Source: Octopus vulgaris
Lineage: Eukaryota
Reading direction: 5' to 3'
Assembly: GCA_951406725.2 (NCBI GenBank)
Contig: OX597814.1
Span: 211,916,001-211,980,000, forward strand
Length of the DNA stretch: 64,000 bases
Part shown: positions 26,053 to 59,910 of the stretch, piece by piece
Layout: every line of letters starts with the position of its first letter
Position numbering within the stretch: position 1 is the stretch's first letter
Translations under genes and position numbers: made by a program
The notes under the pieces: generated by a model
Told to the model about the DNA's origin: nothing
The model's input: only the letters and a program-made list of their open reading frames with translations
The model's database searches: none

Positions 26053-26826
26053 ATTACATCATAACAGAATATTTGATCGAATCAAGAAAAATAAAAAGAA
26101 ATAATATTCAAAGTTGGACTTCCACTTCTCCATCATTATTATATATGGAAAATAAAGTATTGATTTCCTTGAAATTAAATAAAAGGCAACATATGTCTCA
26201 AGAAAAATAAGCAATTGAGCCAAGAATAATTAGCAAGCAAGATAAAAAGAAGCAAAATAAAGCATGGGCAGCAATGAATATTGACAAATAATACAAATTA
26301 ATTGACTGGTAAGATAGCTTAAGTTTACTTAACTTAACATTTATAATATTCAGAGAAACATCGTCCTGCTGACAATTCCTGAATTTCATTCATTTCTATT
26401 TCGATATATTGAAATTAGTAACATTATGGGTGAAAATAGTGAATAACATGAATAATTAATACTCATGAATTGTGCAAAGTTGTCTAAGATTATAAAGGTA
26501 TTAAAATCCTGTCCATATTCCAGTAGTGAATGAAACACACTTCGTACCGTTTACAGACAAAACTGGCATATTGTCCTTGACTATGTCTATCCGGTACCCT
26601 GGATATTCCAGTCGCTACGACATATTCATTTTAGTAATTTTACTGACATTTCCAGAGAAAATAATGATTGCGATACAGTTAAAATTACTAAGTCTCTCTA
26701 AAAGAGAACAACGGCAGCGTTCCCGGAAAATAATAGTTATCGCCATACTAATATGGCATTCTTATAAAAATAAGAATAAACCTTCGAGCAGAGATTGTCA
26801 GAAGCGACACCTACTGGTCTGGCTAC

Positions 26827-26868
26827 GCTACATTGAAAAGGGGCAATACCCCGAAACGCGTCTGTAGC
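26827..26868 (+). ncRNA. Minimal type I hammerhead ribozyme (U3-A8 variant), copy 1
   Basis: gctaca-TTGAAAA-GGGG caata CCCC-GAAA-CGCG-TC-tgtagc. Confidence 0.8.
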
Positions 26869-27189
26869 TGCCGGTCAAGTAGTGTGGAGCGACTGACCTC
26901 CCTTGTTCGAAGGTTATATGGATACAGTTTGTGTATCAAATAGCTAACTTAAGGCGACGGCCTCATGGAGCTAATAAGCGGACAGCTTTATTCTTATTTT
27001 TTTAAGAATGCCATATTAGTATGGCGATAACTAATATTTTCCGGGAACGCTGCCGTTGTTCTCTTTTAGAGAGACTTAGTAATTTTAATATTTCTATTAT
27101 TGAAAACAAGTGGATGTATTCCACCGAAGCTAGGTAAATAAAACCTTCGAACAGAGATTGTCAGAAGCGACACCTACTGGTCTGGCTAC

Positions 27190-27231
27190 GCTACATTGAA
27201 AAGGGGCAATACCCCGAAACGCGTCTGTAGC
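27190..27231 (+). ncRNA. Minimal type I hammerhead ribozyme (U3-A8 variant), copy 2
   Basis: Identical to 26827-26868. Confidence 0.8.
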
Positions 27232-27734
27232 TGCCGGTCAAGTAGTGTGGAGCGACTGACCTCCCTTGTTCGAAGGTTATATGGATACAGTTTGTGTATC
27301 AAATAGCTAACTTAAGGCGATGGCCTCATGGAGCTAATAAGCGGACAGCTTTATTCTTATTTTTATAAGAATGCCATATTAGTATGGCGATAACTATTAT
27401 TTTCCGGGAACGCTGCCGTTGTTCTCTTTTAGAGAGACTTAGTAATTTTAATATTTCTATTATATATATATATAGATAGATAGATAGATAGATAGATAGA
27501 CAGATAGATAGGACAAAACACACTACGCGCACACAGCTGTTACATATAAGCGCTGCTCACACACGCGCGCACATACACTTCTGGGTGCCTCACAACTCCT
27601 GTCTATACACATGCACGCGATCACATAACATTTCTGCTCACCCACTTGCTAACACACTCATACAAACGCGCTCACACATACACATTTATAAAATCGCACA
27701 CAATATCTCTCTCCTTCACACCCATACATATGAT

Positions 27735-28859: not shown

Positions 28860-30225
28860 CACTGTGAATAAAGATAGAGTGGCCAGTGAATATTGCACCT
28901 GACTTAGGAAAATATGGCAGTCGGAACTCTCCTCTTACAACAAAGCAATATCCCACAATGCGTTTGCAGCACCAGTGCTTATCTCAACATTTGAGGTACT
29001 TGATTGGTCTATAGAGGAAATTCATTCCATAGATATCAAAACCCGCAAAATCCTAACAACAATAGGCAGCTTCCACAGAAACAATCATATTGATAGGCTC
29101 TATCTAAGAAGAAATGAAAGTGGTAGAGGCCTGAAATCAGTACAGACGGACTTCGAATGCCGTATGATACTACTCAGGCAGCATCTGCTAAACAACAGCA
29201 GCAAAAATAAGTATATACATGCAGTGAGGAACATTGTACGAGTTGGAGGTGAGCTCCTCAAGAAGTACTCTCTCCCTGATTATCTATACAGCCCCAAAAT
29301 AGCTGTGCTCTCTTACGCCAGAGCAGACCTGGATGGAAAGCACTCTTACAAAAAGAAAGGAAAGAAATGTTATGCATGGGTATATTGCCCGGAAGCTTGA
29401 AAAGGACAGTAGAATTGACAAGAAGTGCAGTCTCTCATGGATACAAGTTCACTACATCACACTTTGAGGGCTATGCGTTTGCAATCCAGGAACAGGAGAT
29501 CGCCACGAAGTACCCAGTGAACAAAAGAAAAAGTGACGTACTTGTGATTCCAAGGTCGACCGTCATGTTTCCGAAGAAGACATCACGTATGTGATTAGCA
29601 GCTGTCCTAAAATTTCGCCACCGTCCTACCTCCCTATTCGGCACGTTGTTGTGGCTAAAACAATTTAGAATGCCATCCGCAAAAATGACTATCCTGAAAT
29701 AAACTTAGAAAACCCTTCTGTTATGGAATACATTCATAAACACAAACTCAAGGAATACTGGTGAAATATTCCCATCAAAACTCCTGTCAAATATAAACAT
29801 AACAGACCGAATATTCTTGAATGGGACAGAGACGCAAAAGTATGTACCATCATTGAGGTCACCTGTCCTGCAGATATAAATGTGTATTTGAAGATCAAAG
29901 AAAAGGAGGATATCTAAGGACAACTGCTTCGAAACCTGCAGCTTCTATATCCAGCCTATCAATTCATATTCGTACCAATAATAATTGCAGCACTAGGTTT
30001 TGTTAGTAAATGCTTAAAGGAGAATTTGGATTGACTGGGATTCTCAGAAATTGAAATCGACCGGCTAATTCGTACATTACAAGTGCAGTCTGAGAGCAGA
30101 ACATTTATGAAGTTCCAAATGTGAATTTGTCTGTGTTAACTACATCCAAAAGATATAGACTTGTCTCTTTGTCAGAAACCGGCTCCTTCCTCAGTGGAAT
30201 AGTTCTAATAATTAAAATATAGAAG
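28860..30225 (+). mobile_element. 5'-truncated R4/Dong-like LINE (restriction-like endonuclease type)
   Basis: DIKTRKILT...IDRLYL.R..SGRGL, FAIQEQEI, SSCP...RH.VVAK, HNRP.I motifs; frameshifted. Confidence 0.85.
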
Positions 30226-46457: not shown

Positions 46458-46793
46458 TATATATATATTATAGAAGGAGCTTCTACAGGACTAGAACTGT
46501 TTCATTCAGATGAAATCTTCATGAAGCTGGCTGTCAAAATAAGTTCTGGTATTTATGCATTTAGGCATATTTAATGGAGTGGTGGTGGGGGACGTTTTTG
46601 GGATAGGTTGGTATTTAGGAGATAAACAGGGCACAAGCTATTGTTCTTAGGGGAGTGGTCAAAAGGCCAGAGTGTTTTTTGAAATGAGAATAATCAGTGA
46701 GAAAATAAATAAATGAATACATATTTATATACATATGTATAAATATACTTATGTATAAATATGTATATACATACGTATATGTTTATGTATGTA

Positions 46794-48063
46794 CGAGGGG
46801 CGTTCAATAAGTAATGCCCCTGATCCACTTCCTCTAGCAGTAGAGCAACAAAACCTGGCACAGTTATTAGTCTTTGTCTACATAGGAAACACCCAGAGTT
46901 ACGCATTTCTCCCTTCGTTTGATGCAGCTCTGGAGACTATTTTTGTGGAAGACCCCAGCTTGGTCCTCCAACCACGACGTGACTTCAGAAATCAAGGCTG
47001 CATCATCTGGGAAATGCGTTACTTTCAAAAACAACTTCATGGCTGGGAAGCGGTGAAAATCAGAGGGTGCAAGGTCAGGAGAGTAGGGGTGGAGTGATCT
47101 GTGCTTCTGATCTGGCGACAAGCAGGTTGTGAACCGGAGCGTTGTCCTGCAGGAGGAGGATGCCATTGCTGATCTTGCCCCGCCTCTTGATTTTGATAGC
47201 TTCTCTTAATTTCCTCAAAAGTGAAGCATAATAGGCTCCTGTAATTGTGGTACCCTTTGCCAGGAAATCTGTCATCACTACTCCGTCCTGGTCCCAGAAG
47301 ACTGTGAGCATGACCTTGCCAGCGGAGGGCTGCACCCTTGCCTTTTGGAGGAGGTGAGTCACGGTGCTTCCACTGCATTGACTGGGCTTTGGTCTCTGGA
47401 TCATAGTGATGGACCCAGGTTTCATCCTGTGTAATCAGTCTTTTGAAAAATGTTGACTCATCTTCTTGGCACATCTCCAAATTCATCCTCGTGCACTCGA
47501 CGCGTTCTTGCTTCTGGAAAGGTGTGAGCAACCTGGGAATCCATCTTGCAGACACCTTTTGCATATCCAAATGGTCATGAATGATAGTTTCCACAGACCC
47601 GGTAATAATCTTGACCTCATGGGCTATTTGGCGAATAGTTATGCGTCGATCTTCCAAAATGGCAGCCTCAACTTGACGGACAGATGCCTCATCAATTGCA
47701 GAAGGGGGCGACCAGATTTGGGAGCTGTTTCCACAGAGTTCCGAACATGTTAAAATTCACGATGCCAGCGTTTTACAAGGTCATATGATGGGGCATCATC
47801 ACCATAAGTTACTTTCATTTCATCAAAAGTCTCCCGTGGTGTGCGTCCTTTCAAATACAAAAACCGGATCACTGCTCGACACTCAACAGGCTCCATTTCA
47901 TACTTGACTCAGTTCAAACACCTGTAAATCAGAAACCACAATTTGTCCAGAGCTTTAATTCGCCACTTCATCTATAGAGATATCAATAATTGCACATGCA
48001 AAATTTCAGCTAGATCAAACGACGGCAAGTGGGTCGGAGGCATTACTTATTGAACATCCCTCG
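46794..48063 (-). mobile_element. Full-length mariner (DD34D type) with TIRs and TA TSD; transposase disrupted
   Basis: TIRs cgaggggcgttcaataagtaatgcc / ggcattacttattgaacatccctcg; MEPVECRAVIRFLY start at ~47898; WIPRLL, TQDETW, QDNA, YSPDLAPSDF; stop and frameshifts. Confidence 0.95.
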
Positions 48064-51759: not shown

Positions 51760-52815
51760 CAGAGTGTCGCAAAATTAAAGGCAACCGAAGTTTCAGGTTT
51801 TACTAACAATAAATGTGATAAGATATGAAAATTATACATCATTATACATGCTTAGTGTGTCTTCATTTTGTTTCAGACTAAATAAATTAAGATTTATAAA
51901 TTAAGTAATGGCTATAGACCGTAATACAATCGTAGCCCTCGAAGAGTGAGCAAATTATGGTTATAGCAAGAAAGCTTAATGTTAATTGAACAACAATCTG
52001 GAAAATTGTCAAGGAATTTCAAGAGACTGGTCCCACCGCTGTTCAAAAAAGAAATGTGGGGTCCCCTCAGTTTAACAAAATACCAGAGAAAAGATACGGT
52101 GAAGCCTCATCGTTCTGTCAGAAAGATGGTTGCCACGGCTATAATACGCTGAAAACGATGTATCGCATGCTAAACGAGGCACACAGCACCCATCCATACC
52201 AGATGATCCACCGTCGTGCGCTCACGCAAGTTTATAAAGCTATGAAACAGGAGAGAAGACGTCTTATCCTGCATCATATTTTTGAAGGAACACCGCTCAA
52301 CCTGATGTTCACTGATGAAAAGAAATTCATCATCGAACCGACAGTTAACCACCAGAATGATTGGGTTTGGAGTGTATGTGGCTCCATCGAGGGTATACTC
52401 GTTAATTGAAGTCAAGCTCCGGCGGCTGTGGGAGCCACTGGAACGTCTCTCTTCGTTTTTGTACGCTCTAGTGTTATAATTAACCCCTAGCGATAGATTA
52501 GTAACATTCTAGAAGCTGAACGGCTTCCACGACCGAATAAGTACTTCCAAGGTGAACCTTGTAGCCTCCAACAAGACTCAGTACCATGCTACAGTTCCAA
52601 ATAAACACGACACTGGATTCAGATAAACATCTCGTCGTTGATAGGCAAGGAAATATGACCCTGAAGAAGCCCTGATCTCAACCCGTTGGATTTTTCTGTT
52701 GGTCTGTTTTGGAGACTGCTTTCTCGAGCACTCCTCATGCTTGGCTCGACACTCTGAAATCAAAACTCTGCCAGGAATGGGTTTCGATTCTGCAAGAAAA
52801 GCTGCTATGTCATGG
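51760..52815 (+). mobile_element. Decayed DD37D (maT-like) Tc1/mariner transposon, 3' end missing
   Basis: LMFTDEKKF...NHQNDW; QQD-(37 codons)-D ending SPDLNPLD; left TIR ta-cagagtgtcgcaaaa. Confidence 0.85.
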
Positions 52816-52989: not shown

Positions 52990-55900
52990 TCCAAAGGACC
53001 CGACCCGAAATTTCTCCGGAATAAACCAGCCAACTCGTTCTCGTCGATAGTCAGGATCTCCCCGAGAACGTCATCTCACTTACGCGCCACTAACTCTCTA
53101 CAGAAAACCATAGTGGAACTTCTACGGACTGCATTGCCCGACTGGCAGAGGATTCAGAGCGCCGAAGGACACTCTAGGTACCACACAACCTGCCTTGGTC
53201 TACGTTTGATGCAGGACTGCAGCTTAGTGGAAGATACGAGATGTGGGAAATTGTGTCTGAAAACAGCGACCACTCCTGCTTACAATCTAGGAAACGCAAT
53301 TGATAACGCAGCTTCAGATATTCTGCGCATAAATAGACACGTCTTAACATATCTCCATTTAGCGAGTGCTGATAGAAAATAGAGCTCCTGACCAGTGGAA
53401 CACGTCCCTTCCACAGAAAGCCGAAAAGAAGCATTTCAGTTTGGTAAGAATCGAACTGGAACAGGGCACGGTTGGGTGGTAGTAGTTGACAGATGCGATG
53501 TAAGCATTCGCCAACTTTTACCGACCTTCCAAGTATGATTTTTTTCAGCACATTTCCAGGTCTTGCTCGCTAAGTTCTTCTCCACTTGGAGATCTCGACA
53601 GAACCAGATCGCGACGAATTTAACCGGTCTTTCGGGTAGCGACCAACGACGCGGAAGGCATGGATCTACAACTTCAGATGCCAAGTTGCAGGCCCACTGA
53701 TTTCTCGTTATTTTTTCTCCTTTCACCGAATCGTATTCATTTAGAGCCGTGCTTACCAGGTCTATGTGTCTGCTGTTCGACATATGACAGTGCCGCATTC
53801 TACGTATGCCGACACGGTTCTATCATGTCCTAGTTCGCGCGGGATGACTCTGAACTCATCCAGTTTCTGCAGCAATTGCTGTAGAATCATTACATACAGG
53901 GAAGACTGGATGGGACACCTTTACAGACTGAAGCAATGATACTAAATGATATGGATAGGTAAAAATTCACTCGAACTATCGATCAGCTCTAGCTATATAT
54001 TGCTGCGATCCAGCTACGGAAAACGGGACCGGAAGAGGCCGCCAATTATTGGTAGTCAACCCTATCAAAGGCATTAGATTGATCCAAATTGATTAAAGAC
54101 ATAATCATGTCTGCTTCATTACCCTCTCTGTCTATGATGTGTCCCATGAGGTGTAGGTTGTCGGGGAGGGATCTCTTTCGGTCGGGGCATGTTTGCACAT
54201 CACCAGTTACTTGCTCGACAACAAGCGCCCACTTCTTCGCTTATACCTTGCTCAGATGTTTGGAGTCTACATTCAGCAGTGTTATAGGCCTTAAATTTTC
54301 TATTTGATCCCTCTTATCTAGGCCCTTTCTCAGCAGTGTGACTACACATTGGCTCGCTGAACTAGGAATTCTCCGATTGTGCTGGGAGTTGCGGTAGATA
54401 TCTACTAAAAAGCCGCCAGAAAAGTTTGGCATATAGTAAAGCTCGTAGGGTAGACCATCCAAACCAGGCGATTTGCTCCACCCTGCAGCTTATCATCGCG
54501 GCTTTGTTACTACGTTGAAACTGTCACTCGGGCCCATTGGGCGGCTTTAGTTCCCTCGTTTATTAGAGCACGTACATTAGTTCTGACAATACATCTTTCG
54601 CGCTTGGCGTTCAAGATTTGGCCCAGGTCTAATCTCGCCATCAACACGTCAGTTGCAATACTTCTCCAAAGCGCCTCTTATAAGTTCCTAACTAGTTTCC
54701 TTCTATTCTATTTATCTCTATTGCTAGTGCCCTACTAAACCTCAGCGATTCTATCTTAATTGCTCTTTCCGCCATTTGTTGTTGAGGATTGAGCCAGTTA
54801 ACGCCCGCTTAACTGATTCGCTAACCCAGCACTTGAAGTTTGGAACGCCGGGAGTGATGCGTTCAGCTTCCATTAACCCGGTCCCTATCTACGTAATATA
54901 TCTAAATCGGCCGTACAGTTCATAAATTGTGTCGTCTTAGTAGCCGATGGTATTAAAAACTGGAAAACATACTATCATTATCTACTGGTCTACAGAATGC
55001 TCTATCTATATACGACGTGAATGACTCTGCGGTTAGACCAGGCCCACACTTGCACATTCGGGAAATCCAGCCGGTAACTGTCAGAGAGTTGAAAACATCT
55101 GAGCAGGTCTGAGAAGCTTTTGCAGCCACCCCACTTCTATCCCCTTGATTCACACATTTCAAACGTGCTTCTAAGATAGCATTCCAGTCGCCAATAAGCA
55201 TTAAAGGACGAGGCGTTCCAAGGAAATCACCAGACGCCTAAAAAAGTACGGCTACGGCTATCCTAAAATTAACAGCCACTAATCTGAAAGCAGGCCCGTC
55301 GCTACAGCTTACATTCAGGACCAACAACTTACCTTTTGAGTCTAGGAAGATAGGCCGTATCTTGAGATTCAAGCCACTCCAGATTAGCATCGCTGTTCCA
55401 CCTATAATTCTCGGCTGACATGGAGACAGATATATCTCGTATCCAACGAAAATTGGCATAAAAGCCTGTAGGTCAGAGGGTCTGGTTTCACTGATAGTCA
55501 CTATATCGACGCTTAATGACCTGAGGTCGTTGAGTAGATGACCTTGTTTCAGAGTCGACCCCGGCCCACGTGCTTTTATATTACCCACTCGGAGCAGGGT
55601 CATGTAAGATCAAAATATAGGAGCGGAAGAGGGTACCTACTGTGATTTAGTAGAAGAAGAAGGGACGGATGTTCCATACCCAGTAGTATGTTCGGATGAT
55701 TCCATGAGCAGCACTTCATGTAAATGTCTATTTCTGTCCCTCTGGAAAGCCCCTTCTCCTTCAGGATATTTTGCTTTGATGATGTTATATGAGTTTTGTG
55801 ATGATTGTATGACTTTAATATATTTTGGTGTGTTGTTTCTCAATGTGCTGAGATTTGTGTGTGTTATGTGTGTACTGTTAAATTTGTGAGATATTAGTTT

Positions 55901-58610: not shown

Positions 58611-59910
58611 TCAACCTCAATCCAGCTATAGATACCTGGGAAAACTTGATATGGATGGAATCAAACAGAATGACATGGAGGAAAAGACAAACAGAGAGTA
58701 CCTGCGACGAGTGAAAAAAGTTTTGGCTTCAAAGCTGAATGTCAGAAACATAATTACGACAATAAACTAACGTGCAACAGCAATAGTTCGCTATGACGAT
58801 GGAATCCTGAAGTGGACAGAGGTGGAACTAAAGGTGACGGACAGTTAGTCAAGAATGCTTCTAGCGATGCATGGTTTCCATCCTCCATATGCGGACACTG
58901 ATCTCATATACATGAAGAGATCAAATGAAGCAAGAGTACTGATAGTTATGGAAAACTGCGTGCGTATCGAGCTCGAGAGTTTAATGAGACACCTAGCCCA
59001 AATTAAGGAAACTTTGCTAATGACAGTTAGGAGCAAGGGAGCATTCAAAGCAGAGTAAAAAAAAACAAAGGATGAAGTGCAAAAATGACATCAAGAAGAA
59101 GTACGCACGAAGAGACTAAGCAATCAATGCAAGCAGCCACAACGGAAGCTGCTGAAAAAAAATAGGTGGGATTGGCTGATGAAAGGAACCCTAAAAAAGA
59201 GACCATGAGCACTGTACTGGCAGCACAAGACCAAGCTGGGGTCAGGAACTGCAGAGTCAACCTGAGGAATGAGCAAGAGTCTCAGCAATAGGGTGGGTGA
59301 AACAATTGCCCCTATCAGGAACGAATGCCCTAGACATTCCCCAAGCTTCTAAAAGATGTGGCGACACGACCAAGTAGCAAAAGTGCTACACTGTAAACTG
59401 TGAGAAAAGTCTGAGCTAGAGAGATGGAAGACGTGGTATGAGCACAAAACTCAGAGGGTGACAGAGTCGAAGACTAACAAAAGCCTCTGGGATTTCTCAA
59501 ACCAAACAGATCAGGTGGTAGAGCATAACAGGCCGGATCTAGTTGTGGTGGACAATATGCAACACATATGCTATATAGTTGATGTAGCATGCCTCTCTGG
59601 CCAAAGAATATTCGAGAAGAAATGCCAAAAGATTGAGAGATATAAAGCTCTTAAGTGCGAAATAACCCGGCTATGGAAAATGAAGAAGGTGAAGATAGGG
59701 CCAATTATTGTTGAGTTCTCCGGAAGCGTATTAGAAAACATCAAGCGGAATATAAAGGAAATTAGAAGAGACTGCCCATTAGAACTCTTACAAAAGTTTT
59801 ACTTTCTTTGCACGGCCAGAATAATGAAGACCGTATTAGATTGCTGAAAATGATGGATATCATAGTACCGTAGGCTGCAGGTAGCAAGCCCGCTACGTAA
59901 TAATAATAAA
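58610..59910 (+). mobile_element. 5'-truncated R4/Dong-like LINE
   Basis: YRYLG, EYLRRVKKVL.SKLN, AAQDQA, RHDQVAKVLH, LWDF, HNRPDLVVVD, K..KY-type motifs; (TAA)n tail. Confidence 0.88.

What the first reader, a model, noticed from the sequence alone, without database searches (positions are those of the whole stretch)
26679..27463. Tandem hammerhead dimer with compensatory U3-A8 core and palindromic stem III
Seen: two identical motifs 363 nt apart: stem I gctaca/tgtagc, core UUGAAAA instead of CUGANGA, stem II GGGG/CCCC, GAAA, palindrome ACGCGT, GUC cleavage site. Both C3 and G8 are changed so the 3-8 pair is kept (established: this pair forms in the active fold). A palindromic stem III suits dimeric folding of two copies. 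Inference: cleavage at 26862 and 27225 would release a 363-nt monomer able to circularise. The units differ by only a few bases, so the insertion is young.
Basis: partly seen in the sequence, partly recalled or inferred. Interest (0 to 1): 0.75.

Follow-up and report, generated by a model that had tools for sequence, protein, structure and literature searches.

The report
Penelope-inserted retrozyme with U3-A8 hammerhead
This is one young copy of a widespread, protein-free jumping repeat whose units carry a predicted self-cutting RNA with a rare but already published base swap, and whose back-to-back insertions, ending at two fixed points, suggest that a Penelope-type enzyme likely pastes it in from a single small RNA.

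Summary
Observation confirmed: two identical type I hammerhead motifs 363 nt apart with a U3-A8 core. The locus is one insertion of a dispersed non-LTR retrozyme family (1,184 exact core matches; three subfamilies 85-88% alike). U3-A8 is family-wide and published for Penelope-like elements (PLEs; PMC4209133). Copies are head-to-head arms ending in (AT)n at unit positions ~260 or ~323, one of each in 60 of 74 pairs, the PLE 'tail' pattern. Units of one locus mostly share one haplotype (30 of 809 marker sites discordant), and arms run through the cut site up to five times. An autonomous PLE in this genome has a U3-A8 motif, an (AT)n target and two ends, but no shared sequence was found. Obligate dimer folding is doubtful: the full RNA is predicted to favour two single hairpins by 8.4 kcal/mol. 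Cleavage, circles and expression are untested, and plain junction reads cannot show a circle. The scan reported this kind of element before, in this genome and others. New member of a known kind.

The parts
26679..26783 (-). Inverted arm, unit positions 207-311, joined head-to-head to the direct arm over a few A-rich bases; ends at 311, off the two usual end sites, against single-copy DNA without (AT)n
26778..27140 (+). Unit 1, a full 363-nt retrozyme unit; carries all four differences of this locus (unit positions 11, 181, 225, 257)
27141..27463 (+). Unit 2, positions 1-323; ends at the long ('T', tailed) end site
26827..26868 (+). Hammerhead 1, type I, U3-A8 core, predicted cut after 26862
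   Evidence: sequence; folds; covariation
27190..27231 (+). Hammerhead 2, identical, predicted cut after 27225
26779..26914 (+). Long interrupted extension of stem I (repeated at 27142-27277), with compensatory pairs at unit 36-103 and 45-94
26863..27225 (+). Predicted 363-nt cut-to-cut monomer; ends held together by stem I; circular form untested
   Evidence: (z -8.43)
27011..27037 (+). Hairpin and short ('S') end site at unit position ~260 (also ~27374-27400); inferred reverse-transcription start 1
27070..27124 (+). 55-nt segment (unit 293-347) identical in the majority sequences of subfamilies A, B and C; contains the long ('T') end site at unit 323 (27100); inferred reverse-transcription start 2 and protein-binding site
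27464..27511 (+). (TA)n/(TAGA)n microsatellite, the inferred target at the 3' end
   Evidence: 148 of 172 S/T arm ends run into AT repeats

Best explanation
The locus is one insertion of a dispersed, non-coding repeat family with a U3-A8 type I hammerhead motif in each 363-nt unit, likely a non-LTR retrozyme that a Penelope-like retrotransposon enzyme copies into AT microsatellites from a likely circular monomer RNA. Shown: the family, the motif, the head-to-head arms, the two fixed end sites used one per arm, the shared haplotype within a locus and the read-through of the cut site. Inferred cycle: a multimeric transcript is cut at the hammerheads and the monomer is ligated. A PLE reverse transcriptase/GIY-YIG protein cuts both strands of (AT)n DNA, primes one strand at unit ~260 and the other at ~323 on the same RNA, and copies round it for variable lengths. 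The two cDNAs are then joined head-to-head by microhomology. The palindromic stem III probably allows double-hammerhead cleavage, but the long stem I may let single hairpins cut as well.
For: 1,184 exact core matches genome-wide. 172 of 185 arms from 107 loci end at ~260 (90) or ~323 (82), and 148 of those 172 run into AT repeats. Of 74 head-to-head pairs, 60 are S+T, 3 S+S, 0 T+T and 11 have another end (p 4.5e-15 among the 63 classed pairs); subfamily C gives 10 S+T of 15 pairs. The inner junction overlaps by 1-8 nt in 49 of 74 pairs. A tail at one end only, inverted 5' copies, microsatellite targets and two RT start sites are PLE hallmarks. In subfamily A, 30 of 809 marker sites are discordant within loci, and 46 of 63 loci are fully concordant; polymorphic sites differ 4% within and 29% between loci. 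28 rare variants are carried by all overlapping units of a locus, 17 of them across both arms. Arms cross the cut site 2-5 times in 48 of 185 cases, and 5' ends fall at the cut in 3 of 212 encounters. A resident PLE (781-aa RT + GIY-YIG) has a U3-A8 minimal hammerhead motif with the same ACATGT palindrome as subfamily C in 31 of 46 GIY-YIG loci examined, two 3' ends into (AT)n, and an S+T pair in the one inverted copy seen.
Against: No cleavage, circle or transcript was shown. Uncleaved multimers of homogeneous donors give the same footprint, and in vitro an anole PLE uses unprocessed RNA and needs no hammerhead activity. Only 1 of 9 Xenopus retrozyme dimers cleaved in vitro. L016 is a haplotype chimera (6 of 17 markers), 5 of 63 loci have 2 or more discordant markers, and L010 has A6G in 2 of 3 units, which a single circle does not explain. 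In subfamily B the within/between contrast is weaker (25% against 48%, sites affected by alignment gaps). No nucleotide match above noise links the unit to the PLE loci (best E 0.085), so the partner is not identified. Loci were sampled by requiring a full unit or a hammerhead core, which favours read-through. The window's own inverted arm ends at 311, not at S.
Confidence: 0.62

Rival explanations
1. Same PLE-driven insertion, but the template is an uncleaved linear multimeric transcript of a homogeneous donor array. The hammerhead is slow or acts at another step, and no circle is needed.
For: PLE RT uses unprocessed RNA in vitro and hammerhead mutants insert normally. Core-defective A6G units were inserted at three loci on two haplotypes, in 2 of 2 units of L012 and 2 of 3 of L010. 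Chimeric L016. The double-hammerhead fold is disfavoured in the full RNA.
Against: Copying a linear donor from an internal start with 5' truncation can only shorten arrays, yet many haplotypes each have homogeneous multi-unit arms, up to 5.5 units. Rare variants fill all 3-6 units of one arm. The core and stems are conserved across subfamilies that are 12-15% diverged, which implies selection on cleavage.
Confidence: 0.25
2. The template is the cleaved but unligated monomer, whose two ends are held together by stem I; the reverse transcriptase jumps the nick each round.
For: The linear monomer folds with its ends paired, and this gives the same homogeneity within a locus. End-to-end jumping by retrotransposon RTs is recalled, not checked here.
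Against: No pile of 5' ends at the cut (3 of 212). The bases around the cut site were unchanged in nearly all copies listed, whereas jumps often add or lose bases (recalled).
Confidence: 0.08
3. A local tandem duplication or satellite with a relic hammerhead, spread by DNA-level processes rather than retrotransposition.
For: Li et al. 2026 discuss local amplification by unequal crossover. Genomic copies show singleton drift at core positions.
Against: Fixed 3' ends, variable 5' ends, AT targets, S+T pairing and dispersal over many contigs are retrotransposition marks.
Confidence: 0.03

Closest known systems
Metazoan non-LTR retrozymes (Cervera and de la Pena 2020, PMC7229834: passages and Discussion read; Li, Clavereau and Pollet 2026, bioRxiv 10.64898/2026.07.22.740005: parts 1-3 of 5 read)
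   Same: Tandem non-coding units of 150-450 bp (mussel 350-390 bp), one type I hammerhead per unit, GC under 45%, highly self-paired monomer, many dispersed copies. Axolotl HHR_Amex1 also has a one-pair helix III capped by a palindromic tetraloop. PLEs are proposed as the mobiliser.
   Different: Core is U3-A8. The passages read describe no two-armed S+T footprint and no AT target for retrozymes. Cleavage and circles were shown for coral, mussel and axolotl, not here.
Hammerheads of PLE pLTRs, including the U3-A8 variant of Schistosoma mansoni Cercyon elements (Cervera and de la Pena 2014, PMC4209133: parts 1-2 of 4 read)
   Same: U3-A8 core (about 1,300 hits reported in S. mansoni), palindromic helix III, proposed dimer activity, proposed circle template.
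   Different: Those are minimal motifs with a short helix I and long helix II, mostly single. This one has canonical helix sizes (6 and 4 bp), a long stem I extension, and lies in ORF-less tandem units.
Endonuclease-bearing PLE insertions (Arkhipova 2013 PMC3846280 and Craig 2021 PMC8557442: passages; Frangieh 2024 PMC11167929: parts 1-2 of 4)
   Same: Partial tandems, an inverted 5'-truncated copy, a tail often at one end only, microsatellite targets, cleavage and extension of both strands, two internal RT start sites bounding the tail.
   Different: No ORF. The tail is about 63 nt rather than 30-40 nt. Both arms are often longer than one unit. The one-site-per-arm rule is counted here (60 of 63 classed pairs).

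Membership tests
Type I hammerhead ribozyme | Three helices around the conserved core (positions 3-9, G12 A13 A14, A15.1-U16.1, NUH triplet), helix I open | tested here: met
   Sequence; folds; 93% of cells paired and 6 of 35 pairs with changes on both sides, none or one for slid controls
Type I hammerhead ribozyme | Watson-Crick pair between positions 3 and 8 | tested here: met
   U3-A8 in 326 of 329 GCTACA-type cores (two C3-A8, one U3-G8, no C3-G8) and 801 of 813 GCTGCA-type cores
Type I hammerhead ribozyme | Stable helix III in the monomer, or a palindrome allowing a double hammerhead | tested here: inconclusive
   One A-U pair plus a CGCG loop; isolated motifs cofold as a double hammerhead; the full RNA favours two single hairpins by 8.4 kcal/mol
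Type I hammerhead ribozyme | Self-cleavage after the triplet | not testable with these tools
   Needs in vitro transcription
Metazoan non-LTR retrozyme | Tandem 150-450-bp non-coding units, each with a type I hammerhead, at least two consecutive, low GC | tested here: met
   no ORF of 100 aa or more lies inside the element (one 113-aa frame starts in the flank)
Metazoan non-LTR retrozyme | Dispersed multicopy family | tested here: met
   1,184 core matches; loci on many contigs
Metazoan non-LTR retrozyme | Highly self-paired monomer | tested here: met
   z -8.43, 0 of 100 shuffles as stable; circular folds of three subfamilies share the long rod
Metazoan non-LTR retrozyme | Expressed as linear and circular monomer RNA | not testable with these tools
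   Only assembled contigs were available, and a circle junction equals the genomic tandem junction
Non-autonomous PLE-mobilised element | Partial tandem plus inverted 5'-truncated copy, tail at one end, AT-rich or microsatellite target | tested here: met
   the window copy has the inverted arm and T end but an off-pattern 311 end
Non-autonomous PLE-mobilised element | Terminal sequence shared with an autonomous PLE | tested here: inconclusive
   No nucleotide match above noise to 50 GIY-YIG loci except an unrelated inserted retrozyme copy; shared U3-A8 core and ACATGT palindrome only; 50 of more than 6,000 candidates seen
Autonomous PLE | RT plus GIY-YIG ORF | tested here: not met
   No such ORF in the element

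The most novel reading that the evidence does not exclude
A PLE protein dimer cuts both strands of (AT)n DNA and primes two fixed sites, one per strand, on one and the same 363-nt circular RNA, rolling round it from both ends. The rare U3-A8 core and palindrome mark the resident 781-aa PLE family as ancestor or partner of this retrozyme. The retrozyme in turn is the landing site of a Tx1-like retrotransposon whose close relative sits at the start of U2 snRNA genes: a three-tier parasite chain.
Probability: 0.35. Interest if true: 0.62.

Novelty: new member of a known kind. Interest (0 to 1): 0.4.

Why it matters
Retrozyme mobilisation by PLEs through a circular RNA has been proposed from co-occurrence and phylogeny but not shown. 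This family gives countable scars (two fixed start sites used one per arm, one haplotype per insertion, read-through of the cut site) and a candidate intact PLE protein in the same genome, so the proposal can be tested with defined reagents. It also offers a natural U3-A8 hammerhead of canonical size for asking whether a long stem I removes the need for dimer folding. The headline features (U3-A8, palindromic helix III, tandem units) are already in print.

Tried and rejected
Rfam scan of the window at gathering scores: 0 matches. Sequencing runs: no RNA holder listed; contigs of three guessed-RNA runs and one other run were laid but cannot show strand, ends, circles or which copy is read, so they were not used. 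Whether this locus's private alleles and left junction occur in other samples stays open. A-to-I editing of the template: no A>G excess among locus-wide variants (A: 4 A>G, 4 T>C; B: 1 and 0) or single-unit variants (10 and 14; 9 and 14); rejected as a general feature. A6G is 4 of the 12 deviant cores among 813, at 3 loci; too few to call recurrent. snRNA-type promoter in the unit: a matrix from 9 distinct U2 upstream elements scored the candidate at unit 325-344 at 0.9 against 21.7-29.0 for the elements themselves, and best unit scores were reached by 37, 11 and 134 of 300 shuffles; local alignments were not significant; not supported. Direct sequence link to PLE ends: none. Left flank as a repeat that would show the empty site: single copy. 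Selection on genomic copies: not claimed, because exact-flank patterns favour young copies. One search had a pattern one letter too long and gave a meaningless zero. Paper searches: U3-A8/C3-G8 gave 2 papers, only PMC4209133 with U3-A8; retrozyme/twin priming/Penelope/inverted gave none with both 'retrozyme' and 'twin priming' among 9 listed of 10; newt double/single hammerhead and C3U/G8A gave 0. The library lacks most subscription papers, and supplements were not read (the supplementary hammerhead alignments of PMC4209133 and PMC7229834 may hold U3-A8 retrozymes). Rows dropped: 26 of 133 loci as overlapping duplicates; hits under 35 nt; L215; 4 duplicates. L061-L063 were fetched as core variants and inflate the subfamily B deviations.

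Full report
1. Observation. The window holds a direct arm of 686 nt (26778-27463, 1.9 units of 363 nt) and a 105-nt inverted arm (26679-26783). Each unit has the same type I hammerhead motif: stem I of 6 bp, core UUGAAAA, stem II of 4 bp with loop CAAUA, GAAA, palindrome ACGCGU, and a GUC triplet with the cut predicted after 26862 and 27225. The units differ at 4 of 323 bases, all four in unit 1 relative to the family or its haplotype. The arm ends in a TA/TAGA microsatellite. Rfam gives no match. The cut-to-cut monomer folds at -126.4 kcal/mol, z -8.43.

2. Family. A DNA search of the own genome gave 913 candidates; the 40 scored gave 173 matches on many contigs. Exact patterns count 329 and 813 cores of two stem I types and 1,184 with a looser loop II; reversed controls give 0. 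Three subfamilies emerged: A (the window's), B and C, 85-88% alike. C was found by chance beside a PLE, and its search gave 2,724 candidates that partly overlap A and B. U3-A8 is the family state: 326 of 329 and 801 of 813 cores. In the first class the exceptions are two C3-A8 and one U3-G8, with no C3-G8; the 12 deviants of the second class were not all listed. Position 7, which is free in hammerheads (established), varies as A, C or U. In fetched loci the 13 core bases are intact in 133 of 144 A rows and 48 of 60 B rows (three B loci were fetched as variants). Across 12 copies from the three subfamilies, 93% of cells pair and 6 of 35 pairs change on both sides. Five of these are shared by several copies: stem I 53-88, the base of stem II, the middle of the palindrome (ACGCGU to ACAUGU) and two pairs of the stem I extension. 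These are few independent events; 33 of 500 shuffles reach the pair count.

3. Dimer or monomer. Two isolated 42-nt motifs cofold exactly as the double hammerhead (-31.9 kcal/mol, against -11.8 for each monomer with open stem III). In the full tandem RNA the long stem I extension makes two local hairpins better by 8.4 kcal/mol, and the double form has a probability near 1e-5 (tertiary contacts and proteins not modelled). The palindrome is kept in subfamily C by a double change, a single event that chance would give about one time in four (inference). The architecture matches axolotl HHR_Amex1, and amphibian hammerheads are reported to cleave efficiently as dimers. Dimer cleavage is therefore possible but not shown to be required.

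4. Insertion footprint. In 107 non-overlapping loci there are 185 arms. Their 3' ends fall at unit ~260 (S, 90) or ~323 (T, 82), 13 elsewhere; 148 of the 172 S/T ends run into AT repeats. The 5' ends are scattered. 74 loci or sub-loci have two arms head-to-head, overlapping by 1-8 nt in 49 cases. The pairs are S+T in 60, S+S in 3, T+T in 0 and 11 with another end; subfamily C gives 10 S+T of 15. Either arm can be the longer (33 and 27). The T site lies in a 55-nt segment (unit 293-347) identical in all three majority sequences. This is the PLE pattern: inverted 5'-truncated copy, tail often at one end only, microsatellite targets (passages), and two internal RT start sites bounding the tail, with both strands cut and extended. 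The window's copy is slightly atypical: T at the right, but the left arm ends at 311 against single-copy DNA, perhaps by later deletion or off-site priming (not resolved).

5. Template. In subfamily A, units of a locus share one of many haplotypes: 30 of 809 marker sites are discordant, 46 of 63 loci have none, 12 have one and 5 have two or more. Polymorphic sites differ 4% within and 29% between loci; B is noisier at 25% and 48%. 28 rare variants fill all overlapping units of a locus, 17 across both arms, against 287 single-unit variants. Arms cross the cut site 0, 1, 2, 3, 4 and 5 times in 42, 95, 36, 8, 3 and 1 cases, and stop at it in 3 of 212 encounters. Sampling required a full unit or a core, which favours read-through. 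A step that multiplies one monomer is needed to give many haplotypes homogeneous arrays, and rolling-circle reverse transcription is the simplest (inference; proposed). Against it: L016 is chimeric, L010 has A6G in two of three units, and a PLE protein uses uncleaved RNA in vitro. No A>G excess was found.

6. Partner. A GIY-YIG search gave 6,136 candidates, 150 scored, many in 781-aa frames. These encode RT plus a C-terminal GIY-YIG domain behind a 479-aa frame of no clear family; the clade was not tested. 31 of 46 distinct loci examined carry a minimal hammerhead-like motif with UUGAUAA and an ACAUGU palindrome in most, shortly before two 3' ends into (AT)n. The one inverted copy seen (L175) is S+T. 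The stem I of this motif is weak and AT-rich. Other PLE loci show candidate C3-G8 motifs or none. The retrozyme shares no alignable sequence with these loci (best E 0.085), so the shared core is a lead, not an assignment.

7. Comparison and novelty. It works like, and meets the testable features of, a metazoan non-LTR retrozyme (PMC7229834; bioRxiv 10.64898/2026.07.22.740005); cleavage and circles could not be tested. U3-A8 is published for S. mansoni PLE hammerheads. My searches found no paper with U3-A8 in a retrozyme or with twin priming for retrozymes, but the library is partial and supplements were not read. The scan has noted the same kind of element repeatedly, including what appears to be this family; those notes are unchecked and are not counted as support. 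I had the S+T result before the first look-up.

8. A lead from earlier notes was partly confirmed. L108 holds a 5,391-bp L1/Tx1-like retrotransposon inserted in a unit with a 16-bp duplication of positions 24-39, L008 has the same 5' junction, and an 84%-identical relative ends directly before U2 +1 in 2 of 25 U2 loci. A promoter match to U2 upstream elements was not supported. The name Tx1 is recalled from the domain layout and the listing, not from a tree.

9. Verdict. A real, young copy of a U3-A8 retrozyme family, most likely inserted by PLE machinery with two primed strands. The circle step is likely but untested. New member of a known kind; interest 0.4.

Noticed in passing
L108:1774-7164 (-); L008:1-1461 (-): A full-length L1/Tx1-like retrotransposon (515-aa zinc-knuckle ORF, 1140-aa endonuclease-RT ORF) is inserted into a retrozyme unit with a 16-bp duplication of unit 24-39; a second locus has the same 5' junction.
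   Followed up: partly
L225 and L232:1-1500; L234:2349-3194: A relative of that retrotransposon (88% nt, 84% aa) ends directly before +1 of U2 snRNA genes in 2 of 25 U2 loci; L234 holds the 5' end of another relative.
   Followed up: partly
L010, L012, L184: Hammerheads with A6 changed to G at three loci on two haplotypes; both units of L012 and two of three units of L010 carry it. Unexplained under a single-circle model.
   Followed up: partly
L164-L175: A young autonomous PLE family with many open 781-aa RT/GIY-YIG frames, an upstream 479-aa frame without a clear Pfam family, about 1 kb of 3' sequence with repeated CCAAT- and TGACGTC-like motifs, and a U3-A8 minimal hammerhead motif.
   Followed up: partly
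L016: An array chimeric for two haplotypes (6 of 17 markers), suggesting a template switch or later conversion.
   Followed up: no
L036, L045: Two subfamily B arms end at unit ~227 into AT repeats, a possible third minor start site.
   Followed up: no
L220-L244: U2 snRNA genes of this genome have several promoter types sharing an ATCAGT-like element at -57 to -61 in 23 of 25 loci.
   Followed up: partly
window 46789-47657: Overlapping frames that look like a broken mariner-type transposase (resemblance recalled, not searched).
   Followed up: no
window 28975-29400, 55238-55603, 59458-59847, 52056-52409: Short frames resembling fragments of other transposable elements (resemblance recalled, not searched).
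   Followed up: no
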